Shown one piece after another: positions 2,955 through 53,762 of a stretch of 64,000 nt of DNA. The notes below the pieces were generated by a model. That model was given only the letters and a program-made list of their open reading frames with translations. It was not told the origin of the DNA and made no database searches. Both the position numbers and the translations under genes were made by a program. The stretch is from Flaccisagitta enflata (Eukaryota). The DNA is taken from NCBI GenBank assembly GCA_965153355.1, contig OZ231126.1:48980001-49044000 (forward strand), written 5' to 3'. Every line of letters begins with the position of its first letter. Positions within the stretch are counted from its first letter, which is position 1.

Positions 2955-5900
2955 TAGTCCAGTTCCTTACGGGAGGAATCAAAAGTATATCGGCGTTTTT
3001 GGAGGAAGTTTCCAAAATTTGCATACAGGTACAGTTTTTGATGCTGAACAACATGGAAAGAGCCACTCGGCCAAAAAATGGCATGGCCTTTTAAAAAAAT
3101 GCGTTTTTCTGAAAAAAATTTGGGAAAAATGGCGCTGACGCCACACCGTTTGAGCCAATGCTATAAAAATTTCAGGGAAGGAAACTACATGTTTTGTTTA
3201 CTTGCATACCAAATTTTAGCAAAATCCGTCAAGTAGAAGCGGAGATATGGCGTTTCAAAGTCTAGGCCTGTTTTTCAAAAAAGGGCTATGTTTCATTTTT
3301 TGGGCAAAAAATAGAATTTTTTGAGCCAGATGCCCAAAATCTTCCATATTGATGCCAAATGTCCATATGCACTTGGAAAAAAAAACGGCATTAAAGTTTG
3401 TGCCCTATTTTGGCCTAAACGGCTAAAAAAAAACAAAAAAATGTTGCAAATTTTATTTCTTTTCTAAATCTTGGTATTTTTCAAAAATACCAAACACTGG
3501 ATGCCAATGGTGGGAATCATACCATGAATATAAAGATAACCAAGGTTTCAGGACACTGGCCAGTCTGAAAGAACAGAAAAATATTTTCAAATATTTAAAA
3601 AATGCAAAATTTTTTTTGAACTCTTGGATACCCATGGCTTTTTGGCACCGCTGAGCTCTCCAAACGACTTGAGCTAATAAACCAAATTTGGCATGTGTCT
3701 CAGACATCCATGCAACTTCATGCTAAATTTAGCTCTCTAGGTCAATTTTTAGTCTGGTTTTTAGAAAAAAATATTTCAAAAAATGGGCTAAAAAACACAA
3801 AAAACTGGTTTTTTGGCCATATTTGCGTGCTAAGTGATAAAACCATCAATTTTTTTTTTGTACAGGTGATCAATGAGTCTAGGATGCACCATCATGCAAA
3901 ATAGAAGTGCCTGAGATTGGGCAGGTTTTTAAAAATCACTTTTAAATTTTTCCAAAATTTTGAATTTTTGTGATTTTGGTACCTAGCCTCATTTTTTGGT
4001 CAAGATTTTGATGGAAAAATACCAAATTTGATACACATGATCCAGGACACCTACACTTGCTTCAACTAACATTTCATACATGTGGTTGAAGTATAAGATT
4101 GGAAAAATTAACCTCAGGACCCTGAAAAAATTCAATTTTTTTGAATTTTTAGTAAAAAAACAGCTATAACTTGACAATAAACAATACTATTCTCACTAAA
4201 TTTGGTCAGTGGAAGTTAATTCCAACATATGACGAGGAAATAAAAAAAATTGGCAGATTTTTTAAAAATTTTCAAAAATTTGGTCCAAAATAGCCTTTTT
4301 TGGCCAAAATTGCCCTAAAAATGGGATTTTTTCACCTATACCAGCCAAAAGCTTCCTCTATCACCTCCATTTTTCTCACTCAGGCTCTACACTCACACAT
4401 AAAACTAGCATGCAAAATTTTGAGTTCTATCATGGAAAACTAGCCCAGAACACCGTTTTTCGCTGAAAAAATCACTAGTTGGGTTGATGATCTATAAGCC
4501 ACACAGGAATTTTTCCTCCTCCCTCCGCGCCGCCCACCCAGGCCTATTTCAGCCTTAGCCTATCCCAAAAGTTTCCTGAGCCCAAATCCTAGTCTTGAGG
4601 CCTGAGGCTGGGATTTGACCCTCAAGACAAGGATTTGGGCCTCAAGGCTGGGATATGGGCGGAGGCTGAGATATGGGGCCTGAGGTAGGGGTGGCTGGAG
4701 GAGGAGGAGGAGAAGGAGAAAGTCTCCTGTGTGAAAGCATAGGTCATTGACCCTTCTGGGCTGCTGGGCTAAAAAGGAAGAAGAAAATCCCCCATGTGTA
4801 TGAAAGCATAAGTATTAGACCCCTTTGGGACCGCTGCCCAAAAGAAGAAGAAGAATAGTCGCAAAAGCGTGTCCTACCTAAGAAAGTTAAAGCTAAAGTT
4901 GAGGGTGAGCAGGGCAGCGGCCCTGAAAGGGTCGATGACCTATGCTTTCACTCATGGGGATTTTCTTCTCCTCCTTCTCCTCCGTCCATCCTCCTCAAAT
5001 CTCCAGGCCACCCAGGGCCTGTAACCAGTCTCTGGCCCAAAACCCAGTCTTGAGGCCCAAATTCAGCCTCCCAAGGCCCAAATCAGCCTCAAAGCTCAAA
5101 TCCTAGCCTGGAGGCTCAGATTTGGGCCCAAGATTGGGATCTGGGCCTTGGCTGAGATTTTGGACCTTGAGGCTGAGATTGACATCAAGACTGAAACCTG
5201 GGCCTCCAGGCTAGGATTGGGGCCTTGGGGCCAGGATTTGGGCCTGGAGGCTTAGACTAGCCTCAAGACTGGATTTGGGCCTCAACATCAATTTAGCCTC
5301 AAACCTGGATTTGAGGGACGAGAAGAAGAAGGAGAAGAAGAAGGAGAAAACTCTACACATGTGTGAAATCACAGTCATTGACACCTTTCAGGCCGCTGCC
5401 CAAAATTGGGTAGGGTGAAAGTGCAGTAGGTTATGCATATTTTGAATTCCTAGGCTGTTGGTTGGTTGGGTGGTATGCCAGTTGGTCTGGGCAGCTAACA
5501 TGCTGAAATCATTTTGATTCACATACTTCAACTTGCTATGTCAGTTTGATGGTTGCTAAAGACATAGTGATTCTCAGAACCAATGTTATCTAGAAAATGA
5601 CTGTTTTTGGGCAGAGGCCCCAAAGGGGATGAAGTCCTGTAGAACACAGGGGACTTGCCCGCCCATCCGTTCATCCGTTCGCTTGTTAGTCCTCTCACAT
5701 CAGGTCTCTCAGGCCTCAAACCAGCCTCGTTTCCCAAATCCAGCCTCTCAGGCCTTAAATCCAGCCTCCCAGGCCTCAAATCCAGCCTCACGCTCAAATC
5801 CAGCTTCAGCCTCAAATCCAGCCTCAGGCCTCAAACTTAGCCTCAGGCCTCACCAGCCTCAGGCCTCAAATCCAGCTTCTCAGGGCTCACTGCAGCCCCT

Positions 5901-8775: not shown

Positions 8776-9490
8776 CAGGCCTGAGAAGCCTGATTTGAGG
8801 CCTGAGAAGCCTGATTTGAGGCCTGAGAAGCCTGATTGGAGGCCTGAGAAGCCTGATTGGAGGCCTGAGAAGCCTGATTTGAGGCCTGAGAAGCCTGATT
8901 TGAGGCCTGAGAAGCCTGATTTGAGGCCTGAGAAGCCTGATTTGAGGCCTGAGAAGCCTGATTTGAGGCCTGAGAAGCCTGATTTGAGGCCTGAGAAGCC
9001 TGATTTGAGGCCTGAGAAGCCTGATTTGAGGCCTGAGAAGCCTGATTTGAGGCCTGAGAAGCCTGATTTGAGGCCTGAGAAGCCTGATTTGAGGCCTGAG
9101 AAGCCTGATTTGAGGCCTGAGAAGCCTGATTTGAGGCCTGAGAAGCCTGATTTGAGGCCTGAGAAGCCTGATTTGAGGCCTGAGAAGCCTGATTTGAGGC
9201 CTGAGAAGCCTGATTTGAGGCCTGAGAAGCCTGATTTGAGGCCTGAGAAGCCTGATTTGAGGCCTGAGAAGCCTGATTTGAGGCCTGAGAAGCCTGATTT
9301 GAGGCCTGAGAAGCCTGATTTGAGGCCTGAGAAGCCTGATTTGAGGCCTGAGAAGCCTGATTTGAGGCCTGAGAAGCCTGATTTGAGGCCTGAGAAGCCT
9401 GATTTGAGGCCTGAGAAGCCTGATTTGAGGCCTGAGAAGCCTGATTTGAGGCCTGAGAAGCCTGATTTGAGGCCTGAGAAGCCTGATTTT
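8776..9490. repeat. 21-bp minisatellite (AGGCCTGAGAAGCCTGATTTG)n
   Basis: Over 30 nearly identical units; produces the RPEKPDL pseudo-ORF. Confidence 0.97.
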
Positions 9491-9932: not shown

Positions 9933-12012
9933 GCACGCTGATCTTGACGCATTCGACGCGTGGTTTGGCGTCACTGCCTCTCGGCGTTTGTTTGATCCAA
10001 CGCCTAAAACTCTCCTCGTCGGCATCGATAATCCGTTCGCGCTTTCCTTACCTCCTCCCTCCTCCGCGGCCTCCTCCTTCTCCTCGGGAGTGTCTCTCCT
10101 TCGCTCATCGCGTTCATCGGCCGTGCTGTGCTTATCATGGGGCTTGGAGATCGACGCGCTATACCAACGGTTCGACTCTCTCTCGTGGCGCTCTTTTTTG
10201 TCGCATTTGGCGGAGGGAAGGCTGTTTGAGGGGGAGGCTCTCGAAACCGATACTCGTATCGTTGACCCATGTCTCGAAGAGCCGTTTATTGCTCACAGTT
10301 CCATCACTTCTGGTAAGTTAGTGGTTATTGCTGGGCGTTATTGCCCTGAATATCTTGAGTCATGATTATTGGCCAAGGTTCTTTACGTGGCAAAAGAGTG
10401 GATTTATGTTGAAAGTTGATACAGTGGAAAGACGAAAGGATGCTTAATTCCCCATGAATGCTGGTTGCCATGGAAACACATTTCCATGTATTCTCGCTAA
10501 AATATCAATATTTCGAGAGATTTTTTTTAGGGAACATTGCTAAAAATCAAATTTGCTACAACTTTCCTACAGTATGTTCTGTAATAATGTCGCTCATTTG
10601 GCCGTTGCTAGGGAGCGTATCTATGTGTGACAACCCTTAGCAACTGCTAAACGAGCGACATTCTTACAGAACATACTGTGGGAAAGTTATAGCAAATTTA
10701 ATTTTAAAAAAATGTTTCCTTAAAAAATTTCTCAAAATATTGATACTTTAGCGGGAATACATGGAAATGTGTTTCCATGGCAACCAGCTATCATGGGCAA
10801 TAAAGCATCCCTTTATAAGTCTGTTTAATATTGATACTTTAGCGGGAATACATGGAAATGTGTTTCCATGGCAACCAGCTATCATGGGCAATAAAGCATC
10901 CCTTTATAAGTCTGTTTAATATTGATACTTTAGTGGGAATACATGGAAATGTGTTTCCATGGCAGCCAGCTATCATGGGCAATAAAGCATCCCTTTATAA
11001 GTCTGTTTCAAATATCACTCCTTTGGCTTCATTTGTTTTTCTACAATGCTTGCCCCCGTTATCTCAAGTCTAGACGAGATCTACTGTATCTATTCATCGT
11101 CCAGCCCCTCGCCTTCAAATCCGTTACCCTCGCTTTCACCGTCTCATTCTCCCATACTTCCCCTTTCCAGCTGCCTTAGGTCCTCTTTGGCCGCGAACTC
11201 GGTATCCTCTGGTCGCCGTTTTGGGGTTAGACTGGAATGCCGCCAAGAAAGAAGAGATCCGGGACTTCGACGGTTCGTCACCGCAGCGCGTCGTTGCGTT
11301 AGTCACCGTCTTTCATGTTCAGGATGCAGATGACGATGGAGGACGGGGGACGGCTGCGCCAACCTCGCCAACGACAGAGAAAGAAAGAATGGATACGCAC
11401 GCGATGCTGACCTTCGTCGTAACAAACGCTGATCAGAAGCTCCGTCTTCAGCCTTACATTCCCTCCGGTTCCCCACCCGAGGAAGAGGAGGAAACGCCCG
11501 ACCGCTCTGCGTCTTTTGTGAAAGCGGAAATCGGATCGAATCAACGTCAAAACTCGACGGAAGTTGAAAAAACTGAACTGGAAAGTCCACAATGTTTAAA
11601 CGACGTACCTGCGATCCCAACCTCCGCCGATTCCGGAATTTTGGATGCTACAACGGAATCTATCTCGGAGACTGCTTCCCGTATTGACGCCGCAGAAGGA
11701 AATAACCGCCATGAACGGTCGACGTTAATGGACTCTACGTCAAGCGATTCGCTTTCTGACTTCGATCTATCGTCTTCCTATGCCTCCCCCAAAAGCCACG
11801 AATCTTCCCCAACCTCGCCCTCATTTCCGCGACGATCGGAAGATTGTTCCGTGTGCCTCTCACTTCCAGTTACCGTCGTGACGTTGCCCTGCCGTCACGC
11901 CGCGCTTTGCCCTCCGTGTCTTGAGCGACTGAGAGATCGACGATGTCCCGTATGCAGAGGCGTAATTCAAACTCATTTCGAATTAGACGTCGCGTACAAT
12001 GTGATCTCATGA
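9933..12012 (+). CDS. CGRRF1: CGRRF1-like RING-finger protein; exons 9933-10312 and 11171-12012; 5' (TM-coding) exon not located
   Basis: NPFAL..GVSL..CLSWG and GPLWPRTRYPLVAVL recall CGRRF1 NPFGL..CYWG and GTVPRSRYPLVALL; C-terminal RING CSVC..LPCRHAALCPPC..CPVCR; phase-1 intron gtaagt...ttccag keeps the frame. Confidence 0.8.
10421..11086. mobile_element. Tc1/mariner-type MITE copy in the CGRRF1 intron with a triplicated 91-bp internal unit
   Basis: Homologous to the element at 61272-61844; right end caagtctagacgagatctactg-ta. Confidence 0.8.
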
Positions 12013-12233
12013 CGCTTGGAATTGCCAATTCCAGTGTAAATGTAGAATTGTCATTTGTTTTCCGCTATTACCGTCGTCGTTTCCAACTCATTCCTCAGTG
12101 GAAAATTTGTATGGTTAATTTTTTAGCTCACATCAACTAATTTTACCGCCGTATTGGGTCAACAAGCTGAATTGACAAAAACCCTCGCGTGGATCATAGC
12201 TTTCTGAATTTCTAAACACTTAAATGCGAGGTT

Positions 12234-12817
12234 ATGCCCGACTCTGACGCTGGCATCGCTCCCAAAACTATGGCTACTAGCGCATCCGGGTCACAAACTG
12301 TCCTCCAAGTCGAAGGGTCCGGTGGAAGAGAAGGAGCCGCCTCACCTGCAGTGTTGAAATTAAAGCTGAAAAAGCCGCCCCCTTCGCGTCGAGTGCAGTG
12401 GACTGAAGATACTGTCGACAATGAGCATATGAACAAAAAGGTAACCCTGGCGAGCACGAGTTTCCAGGCGTGTATAAAGTTGACCGCCCCTGCGAATTTC
12501 TTCTGGATAGCAGCGCGAGCGTTTTAGCAAATTTTTACTCTGCCCATTTTCAAAACTACTCTCATTTTATCGGCTTGACAATCTTCATTCTCCTTTTTTT
12601 TCAGAAATCAAAATGCTGTTGCGTTTACAAGAAACCCTTGAAGTTTGGTGAAAGCGAAAGCGAAGACAGCGATAGCGATTGTGAGCATTGTTCTCATCAC
12701 ACGCCGAAAGACTTTGTTGCAGCGAGAGACGGCGAGGGAAACCGGCGAGATGACGAAAAAAACGAAAGCAAAAATGATGGAGGTGGAGGGTGTAACGGGG
12801 TTGGAGGTGGTCATTGA
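12234..12817 (+). CDS. PPP1R11: protein phosphatase 1 inhibitor-3; exons 12234-12440 and 12605-12817
   Basis: Spliced product contains LKLKKPPPSRRVQWTEDTVDNEHMNKK|KSKCCCVYKKP, the RVxW plus KSKCC signature of Ypi1/PPP1R11; phase-0 intron gtaacc...tttcag. Confidence 0.95.
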
Positions 12818-13001
12818 TCATTATCTTTTCTGGTGGATAGGACAAAAGGATGTAAATAAACAAATTTTCCTACCTTCTCGATTGGTGGAACGCTTGAATC
12901 ATTCTTATGTACTTATTTTCGACACGCGATTAGTTCCCACCAATATTGACTGAATAAGGTTCCAACGCTGAATTGTGGATAACTTTTGTCGCCTCACCCA
13001 G

Positions 13002-15881: not shown

Positions 15882-18800
15882 ATGACGTCTCAAGCTACGA
15901 TGGCGATCAAGTCGTCGTCTCACGCGCATTGGATGGCGGCATCTGGCCAGTGGAAGCAAGTGGAGAAAAATTTAGAGAAGTTGGGTAACACTTCGCTGCA
16001 ATCCATTCTAACCGTTTTCGACTCTGGCATTAACGAGGAACAGGCTTGGGCCATTTGCTTTCAAGCCGCTAGGAATCTCTCTAAAGTTTGGGCCGCGTCC
16101 AAGGTTAGTGTCGGGAACCAGTAAATCAGTAATGACTCATTTGATCCGTGGTTGCGTTTGATTTCATTTGTCTCGATTTATCACCTTTTTTCGTCTAGGG
16201 TGGGGATTTTCCGTCATTCGCTAACAGTGACGCGTTGTGCATGCACAAGGATGGATCGGTCACCGTGTCTCCTCCGTATCCATCTGTCGAAGACGACGAA
16301 GTCTTGAAATTCGCTACATCCGAATTTCAGCTAGTTTCCTGCTTAGGTAAGGCCACAAGTCGGTAACTAACGACGTTTCTTCGTATTCAATCTATGCATT
16401 GGTCCGTCCGTCCGTCCGTGATTTCCTTTGCTTTTTACTTATTTCCTTTTTCTTGGGAAGGTTACGCGGTTTACCAAGCATTGGACCACGGTCTTCAAGC
16501 GGAACAAGAACGAAACCTCAGTGACCCACTCAACACTTTGATAAACAATATGACTGCCAGCGGCGAAATCGCGCTGGATGAAGGTTAGATACTAGGATTT
16601 GAAAAACAAGTGACGCGGGGTCACAACATCGTTGCGGTCGGGTGGGCAGGGGCATCCAACCCCCACTCACACCCCAACCCACCCCCATACTCAAACATAC
16701 ACAAAACGCATTTAAAACGCTCATTTCCCCATTTTTAACTCCAAGGAATGACGGATCGAAGGACAGACAGACGGGCCGACAGTCTCTTAGAGAGTTGCGT
16801 GTCCGCAACAAGAATAGTCGCAAAAGCGTTAGATGGGCAGCGGTACCCAGTTCCTGCCTAAGTAGGTTGTTCTGGAAGTTGATGGGGAAGCGGGGCAGCG
16901 GCCCCAAAGGGGTCGATGACTTATGCTTTCACACATATGTGGAATTTTCTCCTTCTTCCCCTCCTTCATCCCCCCCCTCAAAACCTAGTCTCGAGGCCCA
17001 AATTCCAGTCTCGAGGCCCAAATTCCAGTCTCGAGGCCCCAATTCCAGTCTCGAGGCCCCAATTCCAGTCTCGAGGCCCCAATTCCAGTCTCGAGGCCCC
17101 AATTCCAGTCTCGAGGCCCCCATTCCAGTCTCGAGGCCCCCATTCCAGTCTCGAGGCCCCCATTCCAGTCTCGAGGCCCCCATTCCAGTCTCGAGGCCCC
17201 CATTCCAGTCTCGAGGCCCCCATTCCAGTCTCGAGGCCCCCATTCCAGTCTCGAGGCCCCCATTCCAGTCTCGAGGCCCCCATTCCAGTCTCGAGGCCCC
17301 CATTCCAGCCCCCATTCCAGTCTCGAGGCCCCCATTCCAGCCCCCATTCCAGTCTCGAGGCCCCCATTCCAGCCCCTATTCCAGTCTCGAGGCCCCATTC
17401 CAGTCTCGAGGCCCCCATTCCAGTCTCGAGGCCCCCATTCCAGTCTCGAGGCCCCCCTTCCAGTCTCGAGGCCCCCATTCCAGTCTCGAGGCCCCCATTC
17501 CAGTCTCGAGGCCCCCATTCCAGTCTCGAGGCCCCCATTCCAGTCTCGAGGCCCCCATTCCAGTCTCGAGGCCCCCATTCCAGTCTCGAGGCCCCCATTT
17601 CCAGTCTCGGGCCCTATTCCAGTCTCGAGGCCCATATTCCAGTCTCGAGGCTCCCATTCCAGTCTCGAGGCCCTATTCCAGTCTCGAGGCCCTATTCCAG
17701 TCTCGAGGCTCCCATTCAGTCTCAGGCCCCTATTCCAGTCTCGAGGCCCCCATTCCAGTCTCGAGGCCCCATTCCAGTCTCGCTTATTCCAGTCTCGAGG
17801 CCCCATTCCAGTCTCGAGGCCCCATTCCAGTCTCGAGGCCCCCATTCCAGTCTCGAGGCCCCCATTCCAGTCTCGAGGCCCCCATTCCAGTCTCGAGGCC
17901 CCCATTCCAGTCTCGAGGCCCCCATTCCAGTCTCGAGGCCCCCATTCCAGTCTCGAGGCCCCCATTCCAGTCTCGAGGCCCCCATTCCAGTCTCGAGGCC
18001 CCCATTCCAGTCTCGAGGCCCCCATTCCAGTCTCGAGGCCCCCATTCCAGTCTCGAGGCCCCCATTCCAGTCTCGAGGCCCCCATTCCAGTCTCGAGGCC
18101 CCCATTCCAGTCTCGAGGCCCCCATTCCAGTCTCGAGGCCCCCATTCCAGTCTCGAGGCCCCCATTCCAGGAAAGCAGCCCCAATCTCAACCTCCAGGCT
18201 GGGATTTGGGCCTTGATACTGGGCTTTAAGGGGGTGGGGGAGGAGGAGGAGGAGGAGAAGGAGAAAATTCCCCATATATGTGTAATAGTCGCATAAGCAT
18301 TAGATGGTCAGCGGTGTCGTGCCAGGGCTGCCTAAGTAGTTTGGGCTTGATATTGAAGGGGGAGCAGGGCAGCGGCCCCGAAGGGGTCGATGACCTATGC
18401 TTTCACGCTTTGGGGAATTTTCTTCTCCTCCTCCTCCTCTGTCCCCCCCTCAAACCCCAGTCTCCAGGCCCAAATCCCAGTCTCCAGGCCCAAATCCAAG
18501 ACTCGAGGCCCAAATCCTAGCCTCAAGGCCCAAATCCTTGCCTGGAGGCTGAGATATGGACCTCGAGGCTGAGATGTGGGCGCCGAGGTTGGGGCGTGGG
18601 CCTCTCAGCTGGAATCTGGGCCTCCCAGCTAGGATTTGGGCCTCCCAGCTAGGATTTGGGCCTCGAGACTGGGATTCGGGCCTTGAGACTGAAATTTGGG
18701 CCACGAGACTGGGCGTTGAGGGGGGGTATGAAGAAGGAGAAGGAGGAGAAAATTCCCCATATGTGTGAAAGCATAGGTCATCGTCCCTCTCGGGGCCGCT

Positions 18801-22924: not shown

Positions 22925-23690
22925 TGAAGTCCATCAGTCCATCAGTCCATCATGGCATACCTGGAAGTCCATGATGGCATACTTGGTAGTCCATGATGGC
23001 ATACTTGGAAGTCCATGATGGCATACCTGGAAGTCCATGATGGCATACCTGGAAGTCCATGATGGCATACCTGGAAGTCCATGATGGCATACCTGGAAGT
23101 CCATGATACATAACTGAAGTCCATGATGGCATACCAGTCCATGATGGCATACCTGGAAGTCCATGATGGCATACCTGGAAGTCCATGATGGTGATACTCT
23201 GGAAGTCCATGATGGCATACCTGAAGTCCATGATGGCATACCTAAGTCCATGATGGCATACCTGGAAGTCCATGATGGCATACCTGGAAGTCCATGATGG
23301 CATACCTGGAAGTCCATGATGGCATACCTGGAAGTCCATGATGGCATACCTGGAAGTCCATGATGGCATACCTGGAAGTCCATGATGGCATACCTGGAAG
23401 TCCATGATGGCATACCTGGAAGTGCATGATGGCATACCTGGAAGTGCATGATGGCCTACCTGGAAGTGCATGATGGCCTACCTGGAAGTGCATGATGGCC
23501 TACCTGGAAGTGCATGATGGCCTACCTGGAAGTGCATGATGGCCTACCTGGAAGTCCATGATGGCCTACCTGGAAGTGCATGATGGCATACCTGGAAGTG
23601 CATGATGGCATACCTGGAAGTCCATGATGGCATACCTGGAAGTCCATGATGGCATACCTGGAAGTCCATGATGGCATACCTGGAAGTCCA
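22925..23690. repeat. 22-bp minisatellite (CATGATGGCATACCTGGAAGTC)n
   Basis: Tandem units read directly; lies within a larger repeat-like segment (~22866-24375) that also has internal direct repeats. Confidence 0.95.
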
Positions 23691-24443
23691 ACAAAATTTC
23701 TAAAAAAAAAAAATATTCAAAAAAATTTCAAAAAAAAAAATTTCAAAAAAAAAAAAAAAAAATTTCAAAAAGAAAATTAATAAAAAAAAAAGTCCAGGTA
23801 ATGATGTTACTAGTTTACATAAATCATAAATACCCTTATATATATTTTCTTAACCAATACTCAGAATTTACTGAAATCTTGCAGAGGAGCTTTGATTGCT
23901 GCACTGAACTTTCACAACGAGTTTGAACGGCATTGGTGAAACTTTACTACCATTCCCATATGTAAATTTATATGTAAATTTACTTTACTACCCTTCCCAT
24001 ATGTAAATTGCAACAGTCCAGGAATCAATATTACTAGCAAAATACCCTAATATCTTCTAAACCAATACTCAGAATTATCTGAAATCTTGCAGGGCCTTCA
24101 CAACAAGTTTGAACAACATTGGTGTATCTTTACTACCCTTCCCCAATGTAAATTGCACAGTCCATGAATTAATAATACTACAAAAATAATAGGCAAAGGG
24201 TATTTAATATTTATGAATGTTGTTGAAAGTTGGTACACAGGTGAGTAATGCCCTAAAAATAATACTGACCAAGTTTCATCAACATCTGAGTTGTGTTTCT
24301 CAAGTTTTTATGGGTTGACACAATAAATAAACTACGAACAAACAACGACTCACTACACGATCAAGGCTATATTATAGACCACATCGAGAAATAACTCGAT
24401 GTGGCCAAAAGAAAAAAAATATGGATCTATTCTTTTCACGCAG

Positions 24444-26014
24444 GATCGGGATCGATATGTCACCGGCGAGTTTCGTTTTCGTCACGGATACGGGAAGGGA
24501 AATCCGCGAAAAATGGTGCAAACTTGGGCCGAAAAGGAGATGCGGAATTTGTCCAGGATGTATCAAGTGGGAATCCTGTGTCCCGAGCCTTTTGTCCTGC
24601 GTGGTCACGTGCTGCTCATGAATTTTCTAGGTAAGGATCTTTCATGGAGCGACATTGACCATGCGCAGATTATCTAAGATTTAGGAAAACTAGCTAGGAC
24701 TAGTAGCGAGCCGGTCCAGGATGGTGATTCTTAATGTGGCGTCACAGTCACAGTGCCTATGGTGCGTATGATCGTGGCCTGAACATATTCAGAGGTTTAC
24801 AAATGATGTTTCTAGACAAACACTCATTTCGCCAAAAAGCTCCAATCCTGTTTCCCCCCTCTTCCCTTTTTCTTCCGCAGGCACCGACGGTTGGCCGGCG
24901 CCGCTTTTAAAAGACGTAGAATTGAGCGAGGAGAAAGCCCGAGAGTTGTACCCTCAGTGCGTCCGGATGATGCGTCTCATGTTCCAGGAGGCGAAACTCG
25001 TCCACGCCGATTTGTCTGAGTTCAACATGCTCTATCACGAGGGCAAAGTTTACTTCATCGACGTCTCGCAATCTGTGGAAATGGACCATCCCAACGCCCT
25101 CGAGTTTTTGAGAAAAGACTGCAACAACGTCAACGAGTTTTTCCGTCGAAAAAACGTGGCGGTGCTGACGTTGAAGGGGTTGTTTGACTTTGTCACCGAT
25201 CCTACCATCACTAGCGACAACGTCGATCGCTATCTCGAGGAAGCGCAGGTGAGACGTGGAACTGAATCGAATTGAATTGAAAGATATTTATTGTAAATGA
25301 AATTAAAAACTGAACTGGCCGCTTGTCAATTGTGTTTCTGAATTTGTACCGTTCATCTTTGACTAGAGACTTCTAGTCCCTTTCTTCCGTTTTCCAAGGT
25401 TTTCATGATGTGATCCCACCTTTCTTTCATTCCCATTTCTTTGCAAATCAAAACTCCTCAAAATTTCTCGCCCTTTCTAGAAACGTATCGAGGCCGGTCT
25501 CGGTGACGACGCGACCAACGAGGAGCAAGTGGCCGAGGAGGTTTTCAAACGGACGTTCATCCCCCAAAAGATGGACGAAGTCATCAACTACCAGAAAGAC
25601 GCCAGACGAGCGCAAAGCGGAGAATCCGTTCAGTATCTAAGCTTCTTAGGGCTAAAAGGGGATCTGAGCGTCAACGAAAAACCGGAACTATTGGGGGAGA
25701 GTGAGGAAGAGGAGGAGCAGGAAGAGGTTTCGGAAAGGAAGAAAGATGAGCAGGCGAAGGAGAACAAGGAAGAGAGAAACGAAGAAGAATCCGAATCGGG
25801 CGATGATGATGAGAACGAAGAAGATGATGATGAAGACGATAAGGATCCCGAAAAAGCCAAAAAAGCAGCCGAGAGGAGAGACATGTCGCCGGAATCGTGG
25901 AAGCGACATAAAAAGGAACTCAAATTGGAACGGAGAGAGAAATTGAAAGATAAGATTCCCAAGCACGTGAAAAAACGAAAAGAAAAATTAGGGAAAGAGA
26001 GGAAGAAAAAGTAG
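24444..26014 (+). CDS. RIOK1: RIO kinase 1, 3' part; exons 24444-24630, 24881-25248, 25481-26014
   Basis: [58 protein letters not shown]-terminal [12 protein letters not shown]; phase-consistent GT-AG introns; N-terminal exons absent. Confidence 0.96.
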
Positions 26015-26122
26015 AATTATTCTTTTTAGCTTTTTAAGTCTTGTTTGCGCAAATTGTTTTTGTTTTGTTAACAGTTTTCTATAAAAATCAATTTGTTTTT
26101 CCTCGCTTTCTAGAGAAAAAAA

Positions 26123-26914
26123 ATGCTTAACATTCTCATTAGCATAATTCGTCATGGACAAACTGACTGTAACGCGCGCGGTGTCCTGCAAGGACAGATG
26201 GAGACATCCCTCAATTCTACGGGGCGGGAGGAGGCGGAGAAACTCGGAGCCAGACTAAAAAATCAACGCTTCACGCACATTTACTCGAGCAACTTGGAGC
26301 GAGCCGTGGATACGGCGCGCCTAGTTTTGGGGCGCAACGTCGCTACCGCCGATGAAGCCAAAGACTCGATGGTTTTCGACGCGCGTCTGCGGGAAAGAAG
26401 TTTCGGAGATTACGAAGGTAAACCCAAGGAGGAGTTGGCCGCTCGACACACGGCCGCCGCCCAGGAGAAAGACTATCCCGGCAAACGGCATTTCGTGCCG
26501 GAGAACGGGGAATCCACGGCGGAAGTGTACGCCCGCGCGCGAGAATTTCTTATCGAAATTTGTCTAGCGATCGGCAACGAGAAGAGGAAAGCCGATATTG
26601 TTGAAGATGATGATGTGTCTGTGCTAATTTCGACGCACGGCGGCGTCGCTATCGAGTTGTTCGCCTTTCTGGTGAAGGAACTTCATTGTCCTCCTCCCGA
26701 CGGTAAATCCGCGTCTAGAATGATCGCCATTCCCGGCAACACCGCCTTATCTACTTTCCGCGTTACTCTAAACCTCGAAGATGTCGTTCGAAGGGAATTG
26801 ACTGAAGTGGTGTCCAGACCGGCGTATCTTTTCGCCGACTGCGCGTGTTTGACGATCCACGATCGAAGTCATTGCGAGAATGAAGCACAAAATGAAGTTG
26901 AGAAAACCGGCTGA
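26123..26914 (+). CDS. TIGAR: TIGAR-like histidine phosphatase (fructose-2,6-bisphosphatase), intronless
   Basis: RHGQT..N, FTHIYSSNLERA, DARLRERSFG..EGK and STHGG catalytic motifs of the histidine phosphatase superfamily. Confidence 0.85.
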   Translation: MLNILISIIRHGQTDCNARGVLQGQMETSLNSTGREEAEKLGARLKNQRFTHIYSSNLERAVDTARLVLGRNVATADEAKDSMVFDARLRERSFGDYEGKPKEELAARHTAAAQEKDYPGKRHFVPENGESTAEVYARAREFLIEICLAIGNEKRKADIVEDDDVSVLISTHGGVAIELFAFLVKELHCPPPDGKSASRMIAIPGNTALSTFRVTLNLEDVVRRELTEVVSRPAYLFADCACLTIHDRSHCENEAQNEVEKTG

Positions 26915-27144
26915 CGCTGGCGAAAGCTTTGAACTTGGTATGAGTCCCCCCACTTCCATTAATTTATTTCTATGCACAACGTGTTTTGTGTCGTTCAGTT
27001 GTTTACACTTAGTTTGAGTTAATTCTTGAGTTCGCACCACCGCCTTTTATGGTGCTTAAGTCTGCCTAGGCAAAAATTTTATTTGTATCCTCTTGTTTTG
27101 CGAACTTTGGAAGTCTCAAATACACATGTCAGTAGAAATCCAAA

Positions 27145-27379
27145 GATGTCCAGTGATCTCCTCGCGACCAAACATTCCATGATCGAGAATATTTTCGAAA
27201 AAGTCCGTCGTCATTATCAAGCGCACAAATCACCAACGGCAACTCCAGACGATACTGACAAAGACTTATCTTCCAACCCAAGACCAGTACAAAATGTGAT
27301 CAGCGACGAGCTTCTCTCCGATCTCTTCTTCCTCTTTCAAACAAAATCAAGATATTGCGGACATACTAACTATAGATAA
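27145..27379 (+). CDS. possible ZSWIM7/SWS1 N-terminal fragment, truncated before the SWIM zinc finger
   Basis: MSSDLL..MIENIFEKVRRHYQ...ISDELLSDLFFLFQ recalls ZSWIM7 VVEELLSEM...IPDEYLLSLKFLFG; resemblance ends near 27340 with no donor site. Confidence 0.4.
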
Positions 27380-27755
27380 ATAGCTAGACCTTCCTTGACA
27401 CTGTTTTCCAAACAAGGACAACGGCGTCGAGACGGACGACAAATAACAAGTGACGCGGGGTCACAATATCGTTGTGTACGGGTGGGCAGGGGCGTCCATC
27501 CCCCATCCATACTCTATGTCCCACACACACATACAAAGAAAGCATCTACAACGATCGGTTTCCAACTATTCGACTTGTGCACACTTATCCAACAGACGGA
27601 CCAACGGATGGACCAACGGACCGACGGACAAAGCCTCCTATAGAGTTGCGTGCCCGCAACCAAAAACCACATCTATACTTTAAAACATTGACCATCATTA
27701 AGAAACAACGACCACTGTAAAGTTCATAGGATGTCTTATCAAATTTCCACACAAC

Positions 27756-31296
<3,541 letters not shown>

Positions 31297-36271: not shown

Positions 36272-38631
36272 TTTTTTTTCTTTTTTTTTTCTTTTTCCTT
36301 TTCCTTTTCCTTTTCCTTTTTCTTCTTCCTTTTCTTTTTCTTGTCTTTTTCTTTTGTTTTCCTTTTTTTTCTTTTGTTTATCTGTTGTTTTCTTTCCTTT
36401 TCCTTTTTCTTTTTCTTTTTCTTTTCTTTTTTCTCATTTCCTCCCTATTTTTTTGCCTTTCTTTTTCTTTACTGATTTTTTTTCTTTTTCTTTATCTCTT
36501 TTTTTTCTCTCTCTCTCTTTCTCTTTCTTTATTTTTTTCTCTTTTCTTTGTCTTTTTGTTACTCTTCTTTTTTTTTTTACATTTTATAAAGTTATAAAGT
36601 TTATAAAGTTTTACACTGACTTTTTCTTGAGTTGGTAAAAAAACGCAAGGCAGTAACTTGGAAGGATGAAGAGGAAGCGATAGAGTAAACAAGCCTGATC
36701 AGGCAACGATGCGTCCTGATTGTGTCACTGCGTGGAGTGATCTGCGCGCTGAGAATGTGTGATTTATGGGAGGGGATTGATGGACAGAGACTCTTCCTAG
36801 AAAGGAGCCACTAAAAACACGTTAATCATCATTTGATCCATTGTGAGATCTTGCCGAGGCTGAAAAGAGCCACGAAATGCAAATTTTGCACAGGCGTAAT
36901 AGATGGACCGATGGATCGACGGACCGACGAACAGACATACGGACACCGGTCCCTTTGGGGCCGCCGCTCAAAAGGGAGAAAATGTACATTCAAAAATGTG
37001 TAGGCTATTTTCACGCTGTGATGAGACTTAACAGTAATTAGAACGTGTTCTAATGACCCTGTGAACTCGTCCAGTTGAGATGAAGAGAACGAGGACGGAG
37101 AGAAAAAGCAGGATGCGGTTTCAAGAAAGAAAAACACTCTCCATCTGCTCCGCTTTAAATACCCCCATCAACCGACCCTAGATCGAGTATCAACGAACCC
37201 CCGAAACTTGGGCCAGCTCTGTGCTCTAAAGCGGTTGATTCACTTCCCTCCTCCACCTACCCGTCTCCCTCTCCCCCCTTCCCCCCTCTCCCATTACACT
37301 GTCCTCGTTGAATGATCAAGTGACGTGGGGTCACAATATCGTTGCGGACGGGTGGGCAGGGGCATCCAACCCCCATCCACACCCCAACCCACCTCCCACA
37401 CTCAAACATACACAAAAAGTATCTAAAGCGCTCATTTTCCCACTTTTCAACTCAATGACCCCCGACGGACCAACGGACCAATGGACGGACCAAGCCTCTT
37501 ATAGAGTTGCGCGTCCGCAACTCAAAATACCGGACTTACGGCGCCCTCAACAACTAGAAGGGATTGTTTGATCATATATTTTTTTCAATGAAGCAATGTT
37601 GTTCCAAGTCATATATTTTAAGTCTCTGTGAATTGCGCAACATTAGAATACGTTTTGTTACTATTAGTATACTAAATGCATGACGAATTTGTTATTGATG
37701 GAATACAATGCAAATGTTTTTTACAACACCATCAACCACTTAGCTTAAATTGCTACTAACATTAACATCTCACAATGCTTCAAATCTATCTAAAACAATA
37801 CCATCGCCGCTTTCATGGAAGACTGCCAACTCACTTTCATCGGAACCCCCCCCCCCGGCCCCAATCCTTCACCTATCTCCAACCCCAGAACCGAGCACCG
37901 TTGGCGTTCTCTCCCCCCCCCCCCCGTTCCCTCTCATCTTTTTCCTCGTAGCATTAATCAATCCAATGTCAGTCATTTTAAAAAGTAACCAGCACGGTTA
38001 TAAATGCTTCTTAACGAAGGTTGATGGAAAAGATGTGAGCGGTTTGCTTCAAGACCGAAGACAGTTCAATTGAAAAATGACTTGATAATATCACTAGACT
38101 ATGAATGCCACGCTGGATGATGACTCGCATAGTTAACCACCTCCCTCCTCCGACTTTGTACCCACTAGTAAAGGCAATTTGATACAATTTCTCTTTGTTA
38201 GACGCAATCACGCAGTCGGCCCGTCATTCGGTAGAGCCTTCGGTTTGTCGCTCCATCATTCGGTTTGAAAATTAGAAATTTTTACTCGCTTATGCTTTTG
38301 AAAACACTGCCCCAGTTCTGCCCATGCCCAACAATGTAACAACTACAACAACAACAACCGACGCCTAGGTTTCAATCAACATGACACGTGGCACAGTTAA
38401 GACATTCGATAGTTTACTTGATGTCATGACCTTGACCCCATCAAAATGTTGCATAATTCTACAGGGCGTACTACCTCGTTTTAGGTGGAGTGCGATTTCC
38501 TCTTTTGGCATCAAATTCTATTACACGAGCTGAACAACTCTAGCGGTAGGAGCCATGGATGTAGGGGAGCACCAAAATTTGCCACATAAACCTAGCATTC
38601 CAAGACCGAGTGAGGTTCAAGACCAACTTAA

Positions 38632-51736: not shown

Positions 51737-53762
51737 AAGGATTACAGTTCAAATCATGAATGGACAATCTAAATTGAAAGAGCTCTCAATTTCAAACGAA
51801 TTGACCAAAATCACCCTGCTTTGCTGCATTAGCTCACGTTTTTCACAAATTAAAAAAAATGAAGGCCGCTTTTAAACGTATTGCTCTGAAATGATCTAAC
51901 ATCAAAAGATAACAGTACTGATTCAATGATTTTTTTGTTGTTTTTGGAGAAATTCGGGACACACTTGTTTTGGTTGAAACAATACCGTAGAAAATCCAAA
52001 CAGAAGCACGTAATAGATCAAAATACCATAAATTTGCTAAAGAATGATTTATTTGATCATATATTTCATTCAGTGAGTAAAAAGGTTAACTTTACTCCAG
52101 CTGTCCTAGATCTCGTATGGATCAATTGACCATCCGAATGAAGTGAGTGGACTCGCTCAGTTTGAGTAAAAAAAAAGGCAAAAAAAGTAATGGGTATGTT
52201 CTATTTATGTTGAAAGAGGCTCGTGTTAACCCAGGTCTTTATTTTGCCGTGAATATGAAAGGAATCGTGATCGAAGTCATTATTGAAATTAGGCAGGAAA
52301 TGCAAAGAGGGATCTATCATGTAATCCAACCAGTCTCAGATCGGATCGGTTTAAGTCTTAGGGTTCGTTGACAGTGAGCATGCACAAAGATGAAATTAGC
52401 ATTGATTCAGCATCAGCTATTTGCATACTAAACTAAAGTAAAGTGGTGCTTTTCGGATGGTGCTCCTTTTAAACGTTTTTCAGACTGATTGTGGAAAAAC
52501 AATTACAAACGAGCTCTCAACGTCTGAAGTACAAAGGCATTTAACAATTCTTTCAGTAAATGATAAAGCGGTATGAGTTCCATTCTTGTATTTGCTTTCT
52601 CACAATATTAAGCCGAACACACCTGAAATCTCCACGAAGTATCTTGGAAACGGGAGAAACACTTTCTGTCTCCTTTTCTTTGATTGGTCTCCAAGATTCC
52701 GAGAAAAAAATGATGGTTTGTACACAATTAAAAGCATAACAGAGAGAGTAACTATAACTGAGCACAGTAAACAGCTAAACAGATAGAGTGTATAGCTGAG
52801 CAGGAGAAGATGTGCAAAACCGTAGAAACAAATGACGCGGGGTCACAATATCGTTGCGGACGGGTGAGCAGGGGCGTGTAACCCCCATCCACACCCTCGC
52901 ACCCCACTGACACTCACACACACAGACAATCACAACTGCAGCGACAAAAATGCGCGTTTTTACACTTTTCAACTCGATCATCATGGACCAATGGACGGAT
53001 GGACGGACGGATGGACAAAGCCTCTTATAAAGTTGTGTGTCCGCAACTAACATTATTTATAAACCAAACAGAAGAGAGAAGCCCAAGCTTGAAAGTAAAA
53101 TGAAGTAGTAACTCTTGAAATATCTTTTTTTTTTCTTTTCTCTTTTCACTTTTTGGGCAGCAGCCCCAAAGGGGCCGATGACCTATGATTCCACATAGGG
53201 CAATTTTCTCTGGTTTCCATCCTCTTCCTCTTAGAGTCTCAAAACAAGCCTCTCAGACCCTAAATCAGGCCTTTCAGACCCCAAATCAGACCTCTCAGAC
53301 CCCAAATTTGACCCCTCCGACCCCAAATCAGGCCTTTCAGACCCTAAATGAAGTCTCTCAGACCCCAAACCACGCATCTCAGACCCTGAATCAGACCAAA
53401 AATCAGGCCTCTCAGCCCCCTAAAGCAGTATCTCAAACTGGAGAAAATTGTCCTATGTGAAATCATAGGTAATTGGCCTTTCCGGGGCCACTGCCCCTCT
53501 CATCAACTCATTCCCATATACATTAACTTAGGGGCAGCGAGTACCGCTGACCATGTAATGCTTTTGTGACTAACCTAGGGCCCGCCCCCCCCCCCAGTTG
53601 TGGGAGGTGTTTTCCCCCTCTTCACATCCCTGGGATAGCAATCTTCGCGAACATAATTGATCTCGCATGGACGAGGATAGTCTATATATAATCTTACAAA
53701 GACGATTGACTGTCTTTTGGTTTTAAAGAAAACTACATCGAACCCAGAATCTGTCAAATATT

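What the first reader, a model, noticed from the sequence alone, without database searches (positions are those of the whole stretch)
25481..27379. Candidate SL-trans-spliced operon: RIOK1 - TIGAR - ZSWIM7-like
Seen: the RIOK1 stop (26014) and TIGAR ATG (26123) are only 108 bp apart. The spacer is T-rich, has no AATAAA and no clear splice donor, and ends in a strong unpaired acceptor (gtttttcctcgctttctAG, 26113) 9 nt before the ATG. A third same-strand ORF starts 230 bp after TIGAR. Elsewhere the window has kb-scale repeat-filled introns and spacers. Known: this layout is typical of polycistronic units resolved by spliced-leader trans-splicing in nematodes, tunicates and flatworms. Inference: this animal has operons, which could be undescribed for its lineage.
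Basis: partly seen in the sequence, partly recalled or inferred. Interest (0 to 1): 0.8.

Follow-up and report, generated by a model that had tools for sequence, protein, structure and literature searches.

The report
Likely trans-spliced RIOK1–TIGAR operon pair
In this unnamed marine plankton animal the message of one gene ends exactly where the next gene's message begins with a short piece of RNA not encoded nearby, the hallmark of a spliced-leader operon, a gene layout already known from sea squirts, arrow worms and nematodes.

Summary
RIOK1 stops at 26012-26014. A 108-nt T-rich spacer ends in a strong acceptor (AG 26112-26113). The TIGAR-like ATG is at 26123, and a third same-strand ORF starts 231 nt after the TIGAR stop.

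Contigs from three marine metatranscriptomes, 97-99% identical in the listed locus pieces, add RNA evidence:
- RIOK1 is cis-spliced, and its introns have zero depth.
- In 2 of 3 runs the RIOK1 contig runs through the whole spacer to 26123 and then carries extra letters. These are A10 in the one case shown.
- In 1 of 3 runs a TIGAR contig ends exactly at 26114 and carries 25 further letters that lie nowhere in 23950-28030.
- TIGAR depth is about a third of RIOK1 depth.

So the poly(A) site of the upstream gene coincides with a used 3' splice site of the downstream gene. This matches the operons without intercistronic DNA of Ciona and the RPS14-PCNA operon of a chaetognath.

I could not read the 25 letters, so the shared spliced leader is inferred, not shown. 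No dicistronic precursor was shown either. The species is unidentified, so novelty for the lineage cannot be judged.

The ZSWIM7-like ORF is exon 1 only, and the RIOK1 5' half is absent from the window.

Verdict: probably a new member of a known kind; moderate interest.

The parts
24444..24630 (+). RIOK1 exon (RIO domain, first exon present in the window)
   Evidence: Pfam RIO1 E 6e-21. Contigs of 3 of 3 runs join it to an upstream exon that is not in the window, and to 24881 across a GT..AG intron.
24881..25248 (+). RIOK1 exon (RIO domain)
   Evidence: Pfam RIO1 E 1.2e-37. Joints 24630/24881 and 25248/25481 are seen in 3 of 3 runs. The intron bins 24635-24771 and 25320-25456 have zero depth in all three.
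25481..26014 (+). RIOK1 last coding exon with stop TAG 26012-26014
   Evidence: tblastn of the full-length relatives P0142 and P0143 covers its first 68 codons; P0145 covers codons near the C-terminus. P0166 (267 aa) is near-identical by eye (sequence printed, not aligned by a tool).
26015..26113 (+). RIOK1 3' UTR, which is at the same time the upstream splice-site region (branch point, pyrimidine tract, AG) of the TIGAR-like gene
   Evidence: Covered colinearly by RIOK1 contigs X2 record 9 and X3 record 17 at RIOK1 depth. T-rich, 53 of 108.
26068..26072 (+). Candidate branch point TTAAC, 42 nt before the acceptor G
   Evidence: Read from the sequence. Inference only.
26080..26085 (+). TATAAA, the only poly(A)-signal-like hexamer between the RIOK1 stop and the acceptor (AAGAAA/AAAAAG matches at 25980, 26003 and 26006 lie in the coding end); 29-37 nt before the RIOK1 poly(A) zone. 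Its first T is also 34 nt before 26114 (TATA-box rival).
   Evidence: Hexamer scan.
26094..26113 (+). Pyrimidine tract and AG acceptor (AG = 26112-26113)
   Evidence: 16 of 18 pyrimidines. Similar to the confirmed cis acceptor of RIOK1 at 25480 (tcgccctttctAG|A against tcgctttctAG|A). The contig match ends exactly at 26114.
26115..26123 (+). Zone in which the RIOK1 mRNA is cleaved and polyadenylated (G 26115 plus genomic A8 26116-26123)
   Evidence: X2 record 9 ends at 26123 followed by AAAAAAAAAA. X3 record 17 ends at 26123 with 12 further letters that were not shown.
26114..26122 (+). Genome-encoded 5' UTR of the TIGAR-like mRNA (9 nt), preceded in RNA by at least 25 letters not encoded nearby
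   Evidence: X1 record 5: 444 nt, of which letters 1-419 lie on 26532-26114 and 25 are left over on the 5' side. No joint to anywhere in 23950-28030 is listed.
26123..26914 (+). TIGAR-like CDS, 263 codons, no intron
   Evidence: Pfam His_Phos_1. PDB best matches 3e9c/3dcy. P0001 is 97% identical, and six further related clusters are 53-68% identical. 88 invariant columns.
26915..27110 (+). TIGAR-like 3' UTR (end approximate)
   Evidence: X1 record 6 lies on 26503-27110 and has 25 further unplaced letters. X1 depth falls from 29.4 to 7.4 between bins 26964-27100 and 27101-27237.
27146..27379 (+). Exon 1 of a ZSWIM7-like small SWIM protein; similarity to relatives ends at 27343 and the ORF then runs to a stop
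   Evidence: phmmer against P0261 gives E 2.4e-6 and 46% identity. P0261 has Pfam SWIM. Covered by X1 record 7 (27026-27340, depth 5.5). Later exons were not found.

Best explanation
RIOK1 and the TIGAR-like gene most likely form an operon without intercistronic DNA. Transcription that begins upstream runs through the RIOK1 3' UTR into the TIGAR-like gene. A given precursor then takes one of two routes. Either it is cleaved and polyadenylated at 26115-26123, guided probably by TATAAA at 26080, and gives RIOK1 mRNA. Or it is spliced at the AG 26112-26113 to a short leader RNA encoded elsewhere, most likely a spliced leader, and gives a capped TIGAR-like mRNA whose genome-encoded 5' UTR is only 9 nt. 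The RIOK1 mRNA keeps the acceptor AG and at least 2 nt beyond it, so the two outcomes exclude each other on one molecule.

Shown here: the two mRNA ends, their coincidence, cis-splicing of RIOK1, and the different abundance of the two mRNAs. Inferred: that the 25 extra letters are a leader shared by many genes, and that both mRNAs come from one promoter.
For: contigs of three marine metatranscriptomes:
(1) The listed contig pieces on the locus are 97-99% identical to the window, so this is the same species or a very close one.
(2) These are RNA, not DNA. Both RIOK1 introns are spliced out in 3 of 3 runs, and the intron bins have zero depth.
(3) RIOK1 contigs of 2 of 3 runs (X2 record 9, X3 record 17) cover the whole spacer and end at 26123 with 10 and 12 extra letters. 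Those of X2 are shown as A10.
(4) In 1 of 3 runs, X1 record 5 (444 nt, 7 differences in 419) stops matching exactly at 26114, the base after the AG, and has 25 further letters. No joint from 26114 to any place in 23950-28030 is listed, although joints with sides as short as 20-22 letters are listed elsewhere. So the letters do not come from the three RIOK1 exons or from the 2.1 kb upstream.
(5) Depth drops about threefold at the junction: X1 84-97 to 26-28, X2 27-30 to 9-17, X3 18.7 to 5.2.

the acceptor has 16 of 18 pyrimidines, and such sites occur 0.26 per kb per strand.

Inference from the assembly method: Logan contigs use 31-letter words (recalled). A contig entering a sequence shared by thousands of transcripts should stop after roughly 24-30 shared letters, which fits 25. 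A private 5' exon would normally be followed further.

a related RIOK1 (P0143, 583 aa) sits on a JGI contig of 3064 nt. A related TIGAR-like protein (P0138, 274 aa) has a longest JGI contig of 3064 nt as well. The two CDS sum to 2577 nt, so one dicistronic RNA contig would fit.

Literature, passages read: Ciona operons lack intercistronic DNA, with an ...AG-AAAAAAAA junction and mutually exclusive processing (PMC1488885). In a chaetognath, 3 nt separate the poly(A) site of RPS14 from the acceptor of PCNA (PMC2481426).
Against: - The 25 letters themselves were not shown to me: the loose-ends table listed six rows per run and this one was not among them. Their identity with the 5' ends of other genes is therefore untested.
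- Only 1 of 3 runs reaches the TIGAR 5' end. X2 and X3 contigs start at 26137 and 26145. Also, 25 letters is under the 31 that the tool itself asks for before a record counts as bridging a place.
- No piece bridging RIOK1 and TIGAR is among the 24 pieces listed out of 1050.
- No SL RNA gene is in the window, and no genome is held.
- The A-run after 26123 could in principle be oligo-dT priming on the genomic A8, or a longer genomic A-run in other haplotypes.
- A second X1 contig (record 6) also has exactly 25 unplaced letters at 27110. These are probably not poly(A), since the next genomic letters are AA and were not matched. So 25 may partly be a property of the contigs.
- The 3064-nt coincidence could not be checked.
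- An internal promoter inside RIOK1 is not excluded.
Confidence: 0.62

Rival explanations
1. Ordinary cis-splicing. The TIGAR-like gene has its own promoter and a non-coding first exon further upstream than 23950, or it borrows one of the RIOK1 5' exons that lie outside the window. That exon is spliced to the acceptor at 26113.
For: The match boundary at an AG acceptor fits cis- and trans-splicing equally. The RIOK1 5' exons are indeed somewhere outside the window, so long-range splicing happens at this locus.
Against: The leader is not encoded in the 2.1 kb upstream that was laid. A unique exon would normally let the contig run on beyond 25 letters. The RIOK1 poly(A) site sitting on the acceptor is typical of operons without intercistronic DNA.
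Confidence: 0.17
2. Independent TATA promoter. TATAAAA at 26080 acts as a TATA box, and transcription of the TIGAR-like gene starts at about 26114, 34 nt downstream. The 25 extra letters would then be a cDNA-synthesis adapter left on the reads.
For: The distance from TATAAA to 26114 (34 nt) is near the classical spacing (established knowledge; coordinates). Adapters are shared sequence, so the contig would also stop after about 25 letters.
Against: The start would by chance fall right after an AG with 16 of 18 pyrimidines before it. The mRNA would have a 9-nt 5' UTR. TATAAA is needed anyway as the poly(A) signal of RIOK1, whose mRNA ends 29-37 nt further on. The library protocol of the runs is unknown to me.
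Confidence: 0.05
3. Artefact. The 25 letters are a chimeric or divergent contig end, for example a haplotype with an indel in the spacer, and the A-run is a contig break in a variable genomic homopolymer. The two genes would then simply be close neighbours.
For: The population is polymorphic, with 2-3% differences and several indels in the UTRs (tables 3 and 4). Record 6 of the same run also has 25 unplaced letters. Only one contig carries the leader.
Against: The boundary is exact to the base at a strong acceptor. X2 and X3 contigs align through 26068-26123 without trouble. The TIGAR contig of X1 has the genomic A8, while the RIOK1 contigs of X2 and X3 have at least 18 and 20 A-positions. Depth changes threefold at the same place in 3 of 3 runs.
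Confidence: 0.1

Closest known systems
Ciona intestinalis operons without intercistronic DNA (Satou et al. 2006, PMC1488885; passages read)
   Same: [quoted passage not shown] The junction reads ...AG followed by A's. The upstream cistron has no canonical AATAAA. Processing is predicted to be mutually exclusive on one precursor.
   Different: There the leader was sequenced on full-length cDNAs and dicistronic cDNA clones were found. Here the leader is only counted (25 letters) and no precursor is shown. The RIOK1 gene tree puts this animal's clade outside the one Ciona sequence, and that tree was a quick one with a long-branch warning.
Chaetognath operons: RPS14-PCNA of Spadella cephaloptera (PMC2481426) and 1,470 validated operons of Paraspadella gotoi (PMC12460157; passages read)
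   Same: Three bases lie between the poly(A) site and the downstream acceptor. The P. gotoi operon criterion of under 250 bp between genes is met by 108, 231 and 221 nt in this window. Several SL forms are used for mono- and polycistronic genes alike. Chaetognaths are marine plankton animals with high polymorphism.
   Different: I could not show that this animal is a chaetognath. The pattern built from the published chaetognath leader ends finds nothing in the window, which says little. The supplementary operon lists were closed, so whether RIOK1-TIGAR is an operon in P. gotoi is unknown.
SL1-type operons of Caenorhabditis elegans (as described in PMC1488885)
   Same: Little or no intercistronic sequence, with the poly(A) site next to the trans-splice site.
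   Different: Those have canonical AATAAA and are a small minority among SL2-resolved operons with spacers of about 100 nt. This animal is not a nematode: its RIOK1 is about 70% identical to mollusc, cnidarian and vertebrate proteins.
Animal groups with SL trans-splicing but no reported operons: copepods, amphipods, ctenophores, rotifers (PMC7986045; copepod paper PMC4664967 seen as a search listing only)
   Same: Marine plankton animals with a leader on many mRNAs.
   Different: If the window came from one of these, the layout here would be first evidence of an operon in that group. Nothing in my calls places it there.

Membership tests
SL-resolved operon (type without intercistronic DNA) | Neighbouring genes on the same strand at very short distance (under 100-250 nt) | tested here: met
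   108 nt from the RIOK1 stop to the TIGAR ATG, and 0 nt or less between the poly(A) zone 26115-26123 and the acceptor 26113.
SL-resolved operon (type without intercistronic DNA) | The downstream mRNA begins at a 3' splice acceptor and carries 5' letters that are not colinear with the genome | tested here: met
   X1 record 5 ends its match at 26114 with 25 further letters and no joint within 23950-28030. This is 1 of 3 runs; the other two do not reach the 5' end.
SL-resolved operon (type without intercistronic DNA) | The same leader sits on many unrelated mRNAs | not testable with these tools
Protein N-termini show no leader-derived extension.
SL-resolved operon (type without intercistronic DNA) | An SL RNA gene (leader, GT donor, Sm site) in the genome | not testable with these tools
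   No genome is held. None is in the window (Rfam; pattern).
SL-resolved operon (type without intercistronic DNA) | [quoted passage not shown] | tested here: met
   RIOK1 contigs end at 26123 with A10 (X2) and with 12 letters not shown (X3); 2 of 3 runs.
SL-resolved operon (type without intercistronic DNA) | A polycistronic precursor spans both genes | tested here: inconclusive
   No bridging piece is among the 24 listed of 1050. The equal contig length of 3064 nt for a related RIOK1 and a related TIGAR-like protein is suggestive only.
TIGAR (histidine phosphatase branch 1) | His_Phos_1 domain with an RHG catalytic motif and closest similarity to TIGAR | tested here: met
   Pfam E 1.4e-35. The RHGQT motif is at residues 10-14. 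Best PDB matches are 3e9c and 3dcy over residues 1-224. An Atlas cluster named TIGAR scores 0.95. Enzyme activity was not tested.
RIOK1 | A complete RIO kinase gene | tested here: not met
   The window encodes only residues from about 213 to the end of a 581-aa protein. The N-terminal roughly 212 residues were not found at E up to 50. The transcripts are complete (P0142, 581 aa).
ZSWIM7 / SWS1 | SWIM zinc finger | tested here: not met
   ORF3 covers only the part before the finger. The finger is seen in the relative P0261 but not in the window.

The most novel reading that the evidence does not exclude
The animal belongs to a lineage in which operons have never been reported. Its RIOK1 clade falls outside the molluscs, anthozoans, echinoderms, vertebrates and chelicerates sampled. 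It would then have evolved, independently, the extreme operon form without intercistronic DNA, in which the poly(A) site of one gene overlaps the trans-splice site of the next by at least 2 nt, so that each precursor can yield only one of the two mRNAs.
Probability: 0.25. Interest if true: 0.6.

Novelty: new member of a known kind. Interest (0 to 1): 0.4.

Why it matters
Spliced-leader operons have a patchy distribution among animals, and whether they arose once or many times is still debated. A well-documented operon of the Ciona or chaetognath type in a further abundant plankton animal would add a data point. This locus, with its overlapping poly(A) and trans-splice sites, would also be a clean case for testing how the choice between the two processing routes sets the ratio of the two mRNAs, which is about 3:1 here. 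If the animal turns out to be a chaetognath or a tunicate, the finding is routine annotation.

Tried and rejected
- The raw-read RNA run X16 (organism A) is another organism. All 1215 reads laid hit only a (GGAC)n-type repeat at 27595-27650 and were only partly on it, 1213 of them at 90-95% likeness, so it says nothing on the locus.
- No whole genome is held for the window.
- I tried to read the leader from protein N-termini. All 7 related cluster representatives and all 13 members of the 97% cluster start at the same Met. A search for shorter fragments gave one protein, also without extension.
- SL RNA gene in the window: Rfam gave 0 matches at gathering thresholds and 14 sub-threshold matches (13 miRNA-type, 1 bacterial sRNA), none of them an SL RNA. 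A pattern from the published chaetognath leader ends gave 0 matches.
- The upstream-exon 30-mer and 18-mer seen in contigs are absent from the window at up to 3 mismatches.
- Species identification failed:
  - The quick RIOK1 tree (the careful search did not finish) puts the clade on a long stem outside all named groups, with a long-branch warning.
  - In the Atlas, a cluster whose commonest labelled phylum is Arthropoda (known for 35 of 82 members) scores 0.96 and the chordate TIGAR cluster 0.95, too close to use.
- Earlier findings of this scan: nothing, in 3 look-ups.
The 3064-nt contigs, and the TIGAR-cluster contigs of 1626-2932 nt, could therefore not be inspected.
- I did not search the literature for this particular gene pair.
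- A + strand ORF at 31087 with PFFKFAV is not a SWIM exon.
Full report
What is in the sequence.

The last RIOK1 coding exon is 25481-26014, with stop TAG at 26012-26014. A 108-nt spacer follows (53 T, 29 A, 13 C, 13 G). It ends in caatttgtttttcctcgctttctAG, with the AG at 26112-26113. After 9 more bases (AGAAAAAAA) comes the ATG at 26123 of an intronless 263-codon ORF that stops at 26912-26914. A third same-strand ORF has its ATG at 27146, 231 nt further on.

The spacer has no AATAAA or ATTAAA. It has one variant hexamer, TATAAA at 26080-85, and a branch-point-like TTAAC at 26068-72. The acceptor has 16 of 18 pyrimidines before it. Sites that good occur 33 times on the 128 kb of both strands, or 0.26 per kb per strand. 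One lying within 20 nt of a start codon is therefore not expected by chance. It also resembles the confirmed cis acceptor of RIOK1 at 25480.

What the genes are.

- The upstream gene is a RIO kinase: Pfam RIO1, E 1.2e-37 and 6e-21 for two exons. It is about 70% identical in one exon to RIOK1 of molluscs, cnidarians, echinoderms and vertebrates.
- The second gene is a branch-1 histidine phosphatase (His_Phos_1, E 1.4e-35). Its best solved relatives are 3e9c and 3dcy (E 2e-27 and 2e-22, aligned from residue 1 to 224, RHG motif kept). I recall these as the zebrafish and human TIGAR structures. An Atlas cluster named TIGAR scores 0.95.
- This second gene has a 97% identical relative and six further clusters at 53-68%, all from unnamed ENA, JGI or Logan records, with 88 invariant columns. 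It is a real, conserved gene.
- ORF3 is 46% identical over its first 68 residues to a 167-aa protein (P0261, E 2.4e-6) that has a SWIM finger. The label ZSWIM7-like is therefore fair for exon 1.

RNA evidence.

Fifteen RNA runs of marine metatranscriptomes from five studies hold part of the stretch, the best four holding 0.32-0.40 of its words. I laid the contigs of the best three, plus one raw-read run, on 23950-28030. The raw-read run is another organism and hits only a repeat.

In the three contig runs:
- The listed locus pieces are 97-99% identical to the window.
- Both RIOK1 introns (24631-24880 and 25249-25480, GT..AG) are spliced out in 3 of 3 runs, and the intron bins have zero depth. 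So this is RNA of this species or a very close one.
- RIOK1 contigs of X2 (record 9) and X3 (record 17) run colinearly through the entire spacer to 26123. They then carry 10 and 12 letters that do not lie on the window. Those of X2 are printed as AAAAAAAAAA.
- The genome has AG-AG-A8 there. The RIOK1 mRNA is therefore cleaved somewhere in 26115-26123, 29-37 nt after TATAAA, and it keeps the acceptor AG.
- The X1 RIOK1 contig stops at 26067 without extra letters.
- For the TIGAR-like gene, X1 record 5 (444 nt, 7 differences in 419) matches from 26532 down to exactly 26114 and has 25 further letters on its 5' side.
- No joint from 26114 to any place in the laid stretch is listed, though joints with sides of 20-22 letters are listed elsewhere. 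The letters are therefore not from the three RIOK1 exons or the 2.1 kb upstream.
- The X2 and X3 TIGAR contigs begin at 26137 and 26145 and are uninformative.
- Depth falls about threefold at the junction in all three runs: 84-97 to 26-28, 27-30 to 9-17, and 18.7 to 5.2.

Reading.

The 3' end of one mRNA and a used 3' splice site of the next gene coincide, and in fact overlap by at least 2 nt. The branch point and pyrimidine tract that the downstream splice needs lie inside the RIOK1 3' UTR, so transcripts that give TIGAR mRNA must start upstream of about 26060.

This is the anatomy described for Ciona operons. There, upstream and downstream cistrons are directly juxtaposed, the junction reads AG followed by A's, and processing is argued to be mutually exclusive on one molecule (PMC1488885, passages). 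It is also the anatomy of the chaetognath RPS14-PCNA operon, in which three bases separate the poly(A) site and the acceptor (PMC2481426, passages). In Paraspadella gotoi, 18% of genes lie in operons, defined by gaps under 250 bp (PMC12460157, passages).

The count of 25 letters fits a shared leader. With 31-letter words (recalled for Logan), a contig that enters a sequence common to thousands of transcripts should stop after some 24-30 of its letters. This is inference. A further hint is that a related RIOK1 (P0143) and a related TIGAR-like protein (P0138) both have a JGI contig of 3064 nt. That length would hold both CDS (2577 nt) plus UTRs. I could not inspect those contigs.

What is not shown.

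- I never saw the 25 letters.
- Hence a common leader, the defining feature of SL trans-splicing, is untested.
- The evidence rests on one contig, and 25 letters is below the 31 that the tool asks for before a record counts as bridging.
- Another X1 contig (record 6) also has exactly 25 unplaced letters, at 27110, and these are probably not poly(A).
- No bridging RIOK1-TIGAR piece is among the 24 listed of 1050.
- No SL RNA gene is in the window, and no genome is held.

Rivals.

- A cis-spliced far-upstream exon (0.17).
- A TATA promoter at 26080 with transcription starting at 26114 and an adapter on the cDNA (0.05). It is disfavoured by the AG and pyrimidine tract and by the 9-nt UTR.
- A contig artefact (0.10).

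The third gene and the wider window.

The ZSWIM7-like ORF is covered by one low-depth X1 contig (27026-27340, depth 5.5) that reads through from the TIGAR 3' UTR. Its best candidate acceptor (AG 27131-32) is weak, with 10 of 18 pyrimidines. Membership of the operon is therefore open.

Only exon 1 is present. Similarity to the relatives ends at 27343, no GT follows for about 70 nt, and no SWIM exon is found anywhere in the window. Likewise, the roughly 212 N-terminal residues of RIOK1, present in full-length transcripts (P0142, 581 aa), are encoded nowhere in the window. Other + strand genes do lie upstream: a RING protein, PPP1R11 and a KIND-domain gene. The block 24.4-27.4 kb is thus flanked by missing exons on both sides. 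The causes could be very long introns, a rearranged haplotype, a partial duplicate or a mis-join, and I cannot tell which. Whatever the cause, the transcripts match the spacer itself, so the junction described is that of the expressed locus.

A second close pair is RING (stop 12010-12012) and PPP1R11 (ATG 12234), 221 nt apart. It is untested by RNA.

Who the animal is.

The transcripts occur in marine metatranscriptomes of five studies (only three runs of one study were laid). The RIOK1 clade (P0142, P0143, P0145, P0264) sits on a long stem outside the molluscs, anthozoans, echinoderms, vertebrates and chelicerates in a quick tree. The careful search was unfinished, there was a long-branch warning, and 46 rows were chosen by me from the hits. 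No named close relative exists for either gene. A chaetognath would fit all this, and so would some other plankton groups. I could not decide.

According to the SLIDR/SLOPPR paper (passages), operons are described in nematodes, flatworms, tunicates, chaetognaths and Hydra. They are not reported in copepods, amphipods, ctenophores or rotifers, which do trans-splice. Novelty therefore hangs on the species.

Verdict.

This is most likely (0.62) an SL-type operon junction of the known form without intercistronic DNA. I file it as a new member of a known kind, with interest 0.4.

Noticed in passing
window 1-24443 (missing feature): The exons for the roughly 212 N-terminal residues of RIOK1, present in full-length transcripts (P0142, 581 aa), are nowhere in the window. 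Contigs splice an upstream exon onto 24444, and three other + strand genes lie in the 24 kb upstream. Possible causes are a very long intron with nested genes, a partial duplicate or a mis-join.
   Followed up: partly
window 27343-27440: The ZSWIM7-like exon 1 loses similarity to its relatives at 27343. No GT donor follows for about 70 nt, and the SWIM-finger exons are not in the window. A dispersed repeat copy starts about 100 nt further on.
   Followed up: partly
window 12010-12236: A second close same-strand pair: the RING-finger gene (stop 12010-12012) and the PPP1R11/Ypi1 gene (ATG 12234) are 221 nt apart. PPP1R11 itself has a canonical AATAAA at 12855. No RNA was laid here.
   Followed up: no
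window 27440-27700; also 16602-16809, 29835-30087 (-), 37317-37527, 52827-53050 and ten shorter matches: A dispersed repeat of about 220 nt with a (GGAC)n-like core has 16 blastn matches in the window. Depth in the bins over the laid copy (27375-27785) runs from hundreds to tens of thousands in the metatranscriptome contigs, and the (GGAC)n core also draws reads from the unrelated organism A.
   Followed up: partly
window 26123-26914 against relatives P0271, P0139, P0268: The TIGAR-like CDS has no intron here. Truncated proteins of relatives diverge into unrelated sequence after about residues 72, 78 and 150, as if introns were read through there.
   Followed up: no
window 16987-18170, 22944-23690, 9000-9489, 28141-28637, 30390-30985: Long minisatellites (20-, 22- and 21-nt units, 23-61 copies) and (GTT)n/(TGT)n arrays of about 0.5 kb are present. 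The 537-codon open frame at 16603-18213 mostly overlaps the 20-nt array (16987-18170), so it is probably repeat rather than a gene.
   Followed up: partly
window 27588-28025 and 28668-28922, minus strand: A converging gene with a PTB/PID domain (Pfam E 4e-8) and a coiled-coil C-terminal ORF. The part laid, 27786-28030, has zero depth in the three runs.
   Followed up: no
window 58853-59097, 5036-5280, 57872-58054, 58328-58447: Hairpin-forming stretches match plant miRNA precursor models far below their gathering scores, one of them (58853-59097) on both strands. They are probably inverted-repeat (MITE-like) elements.
   Followed up: no
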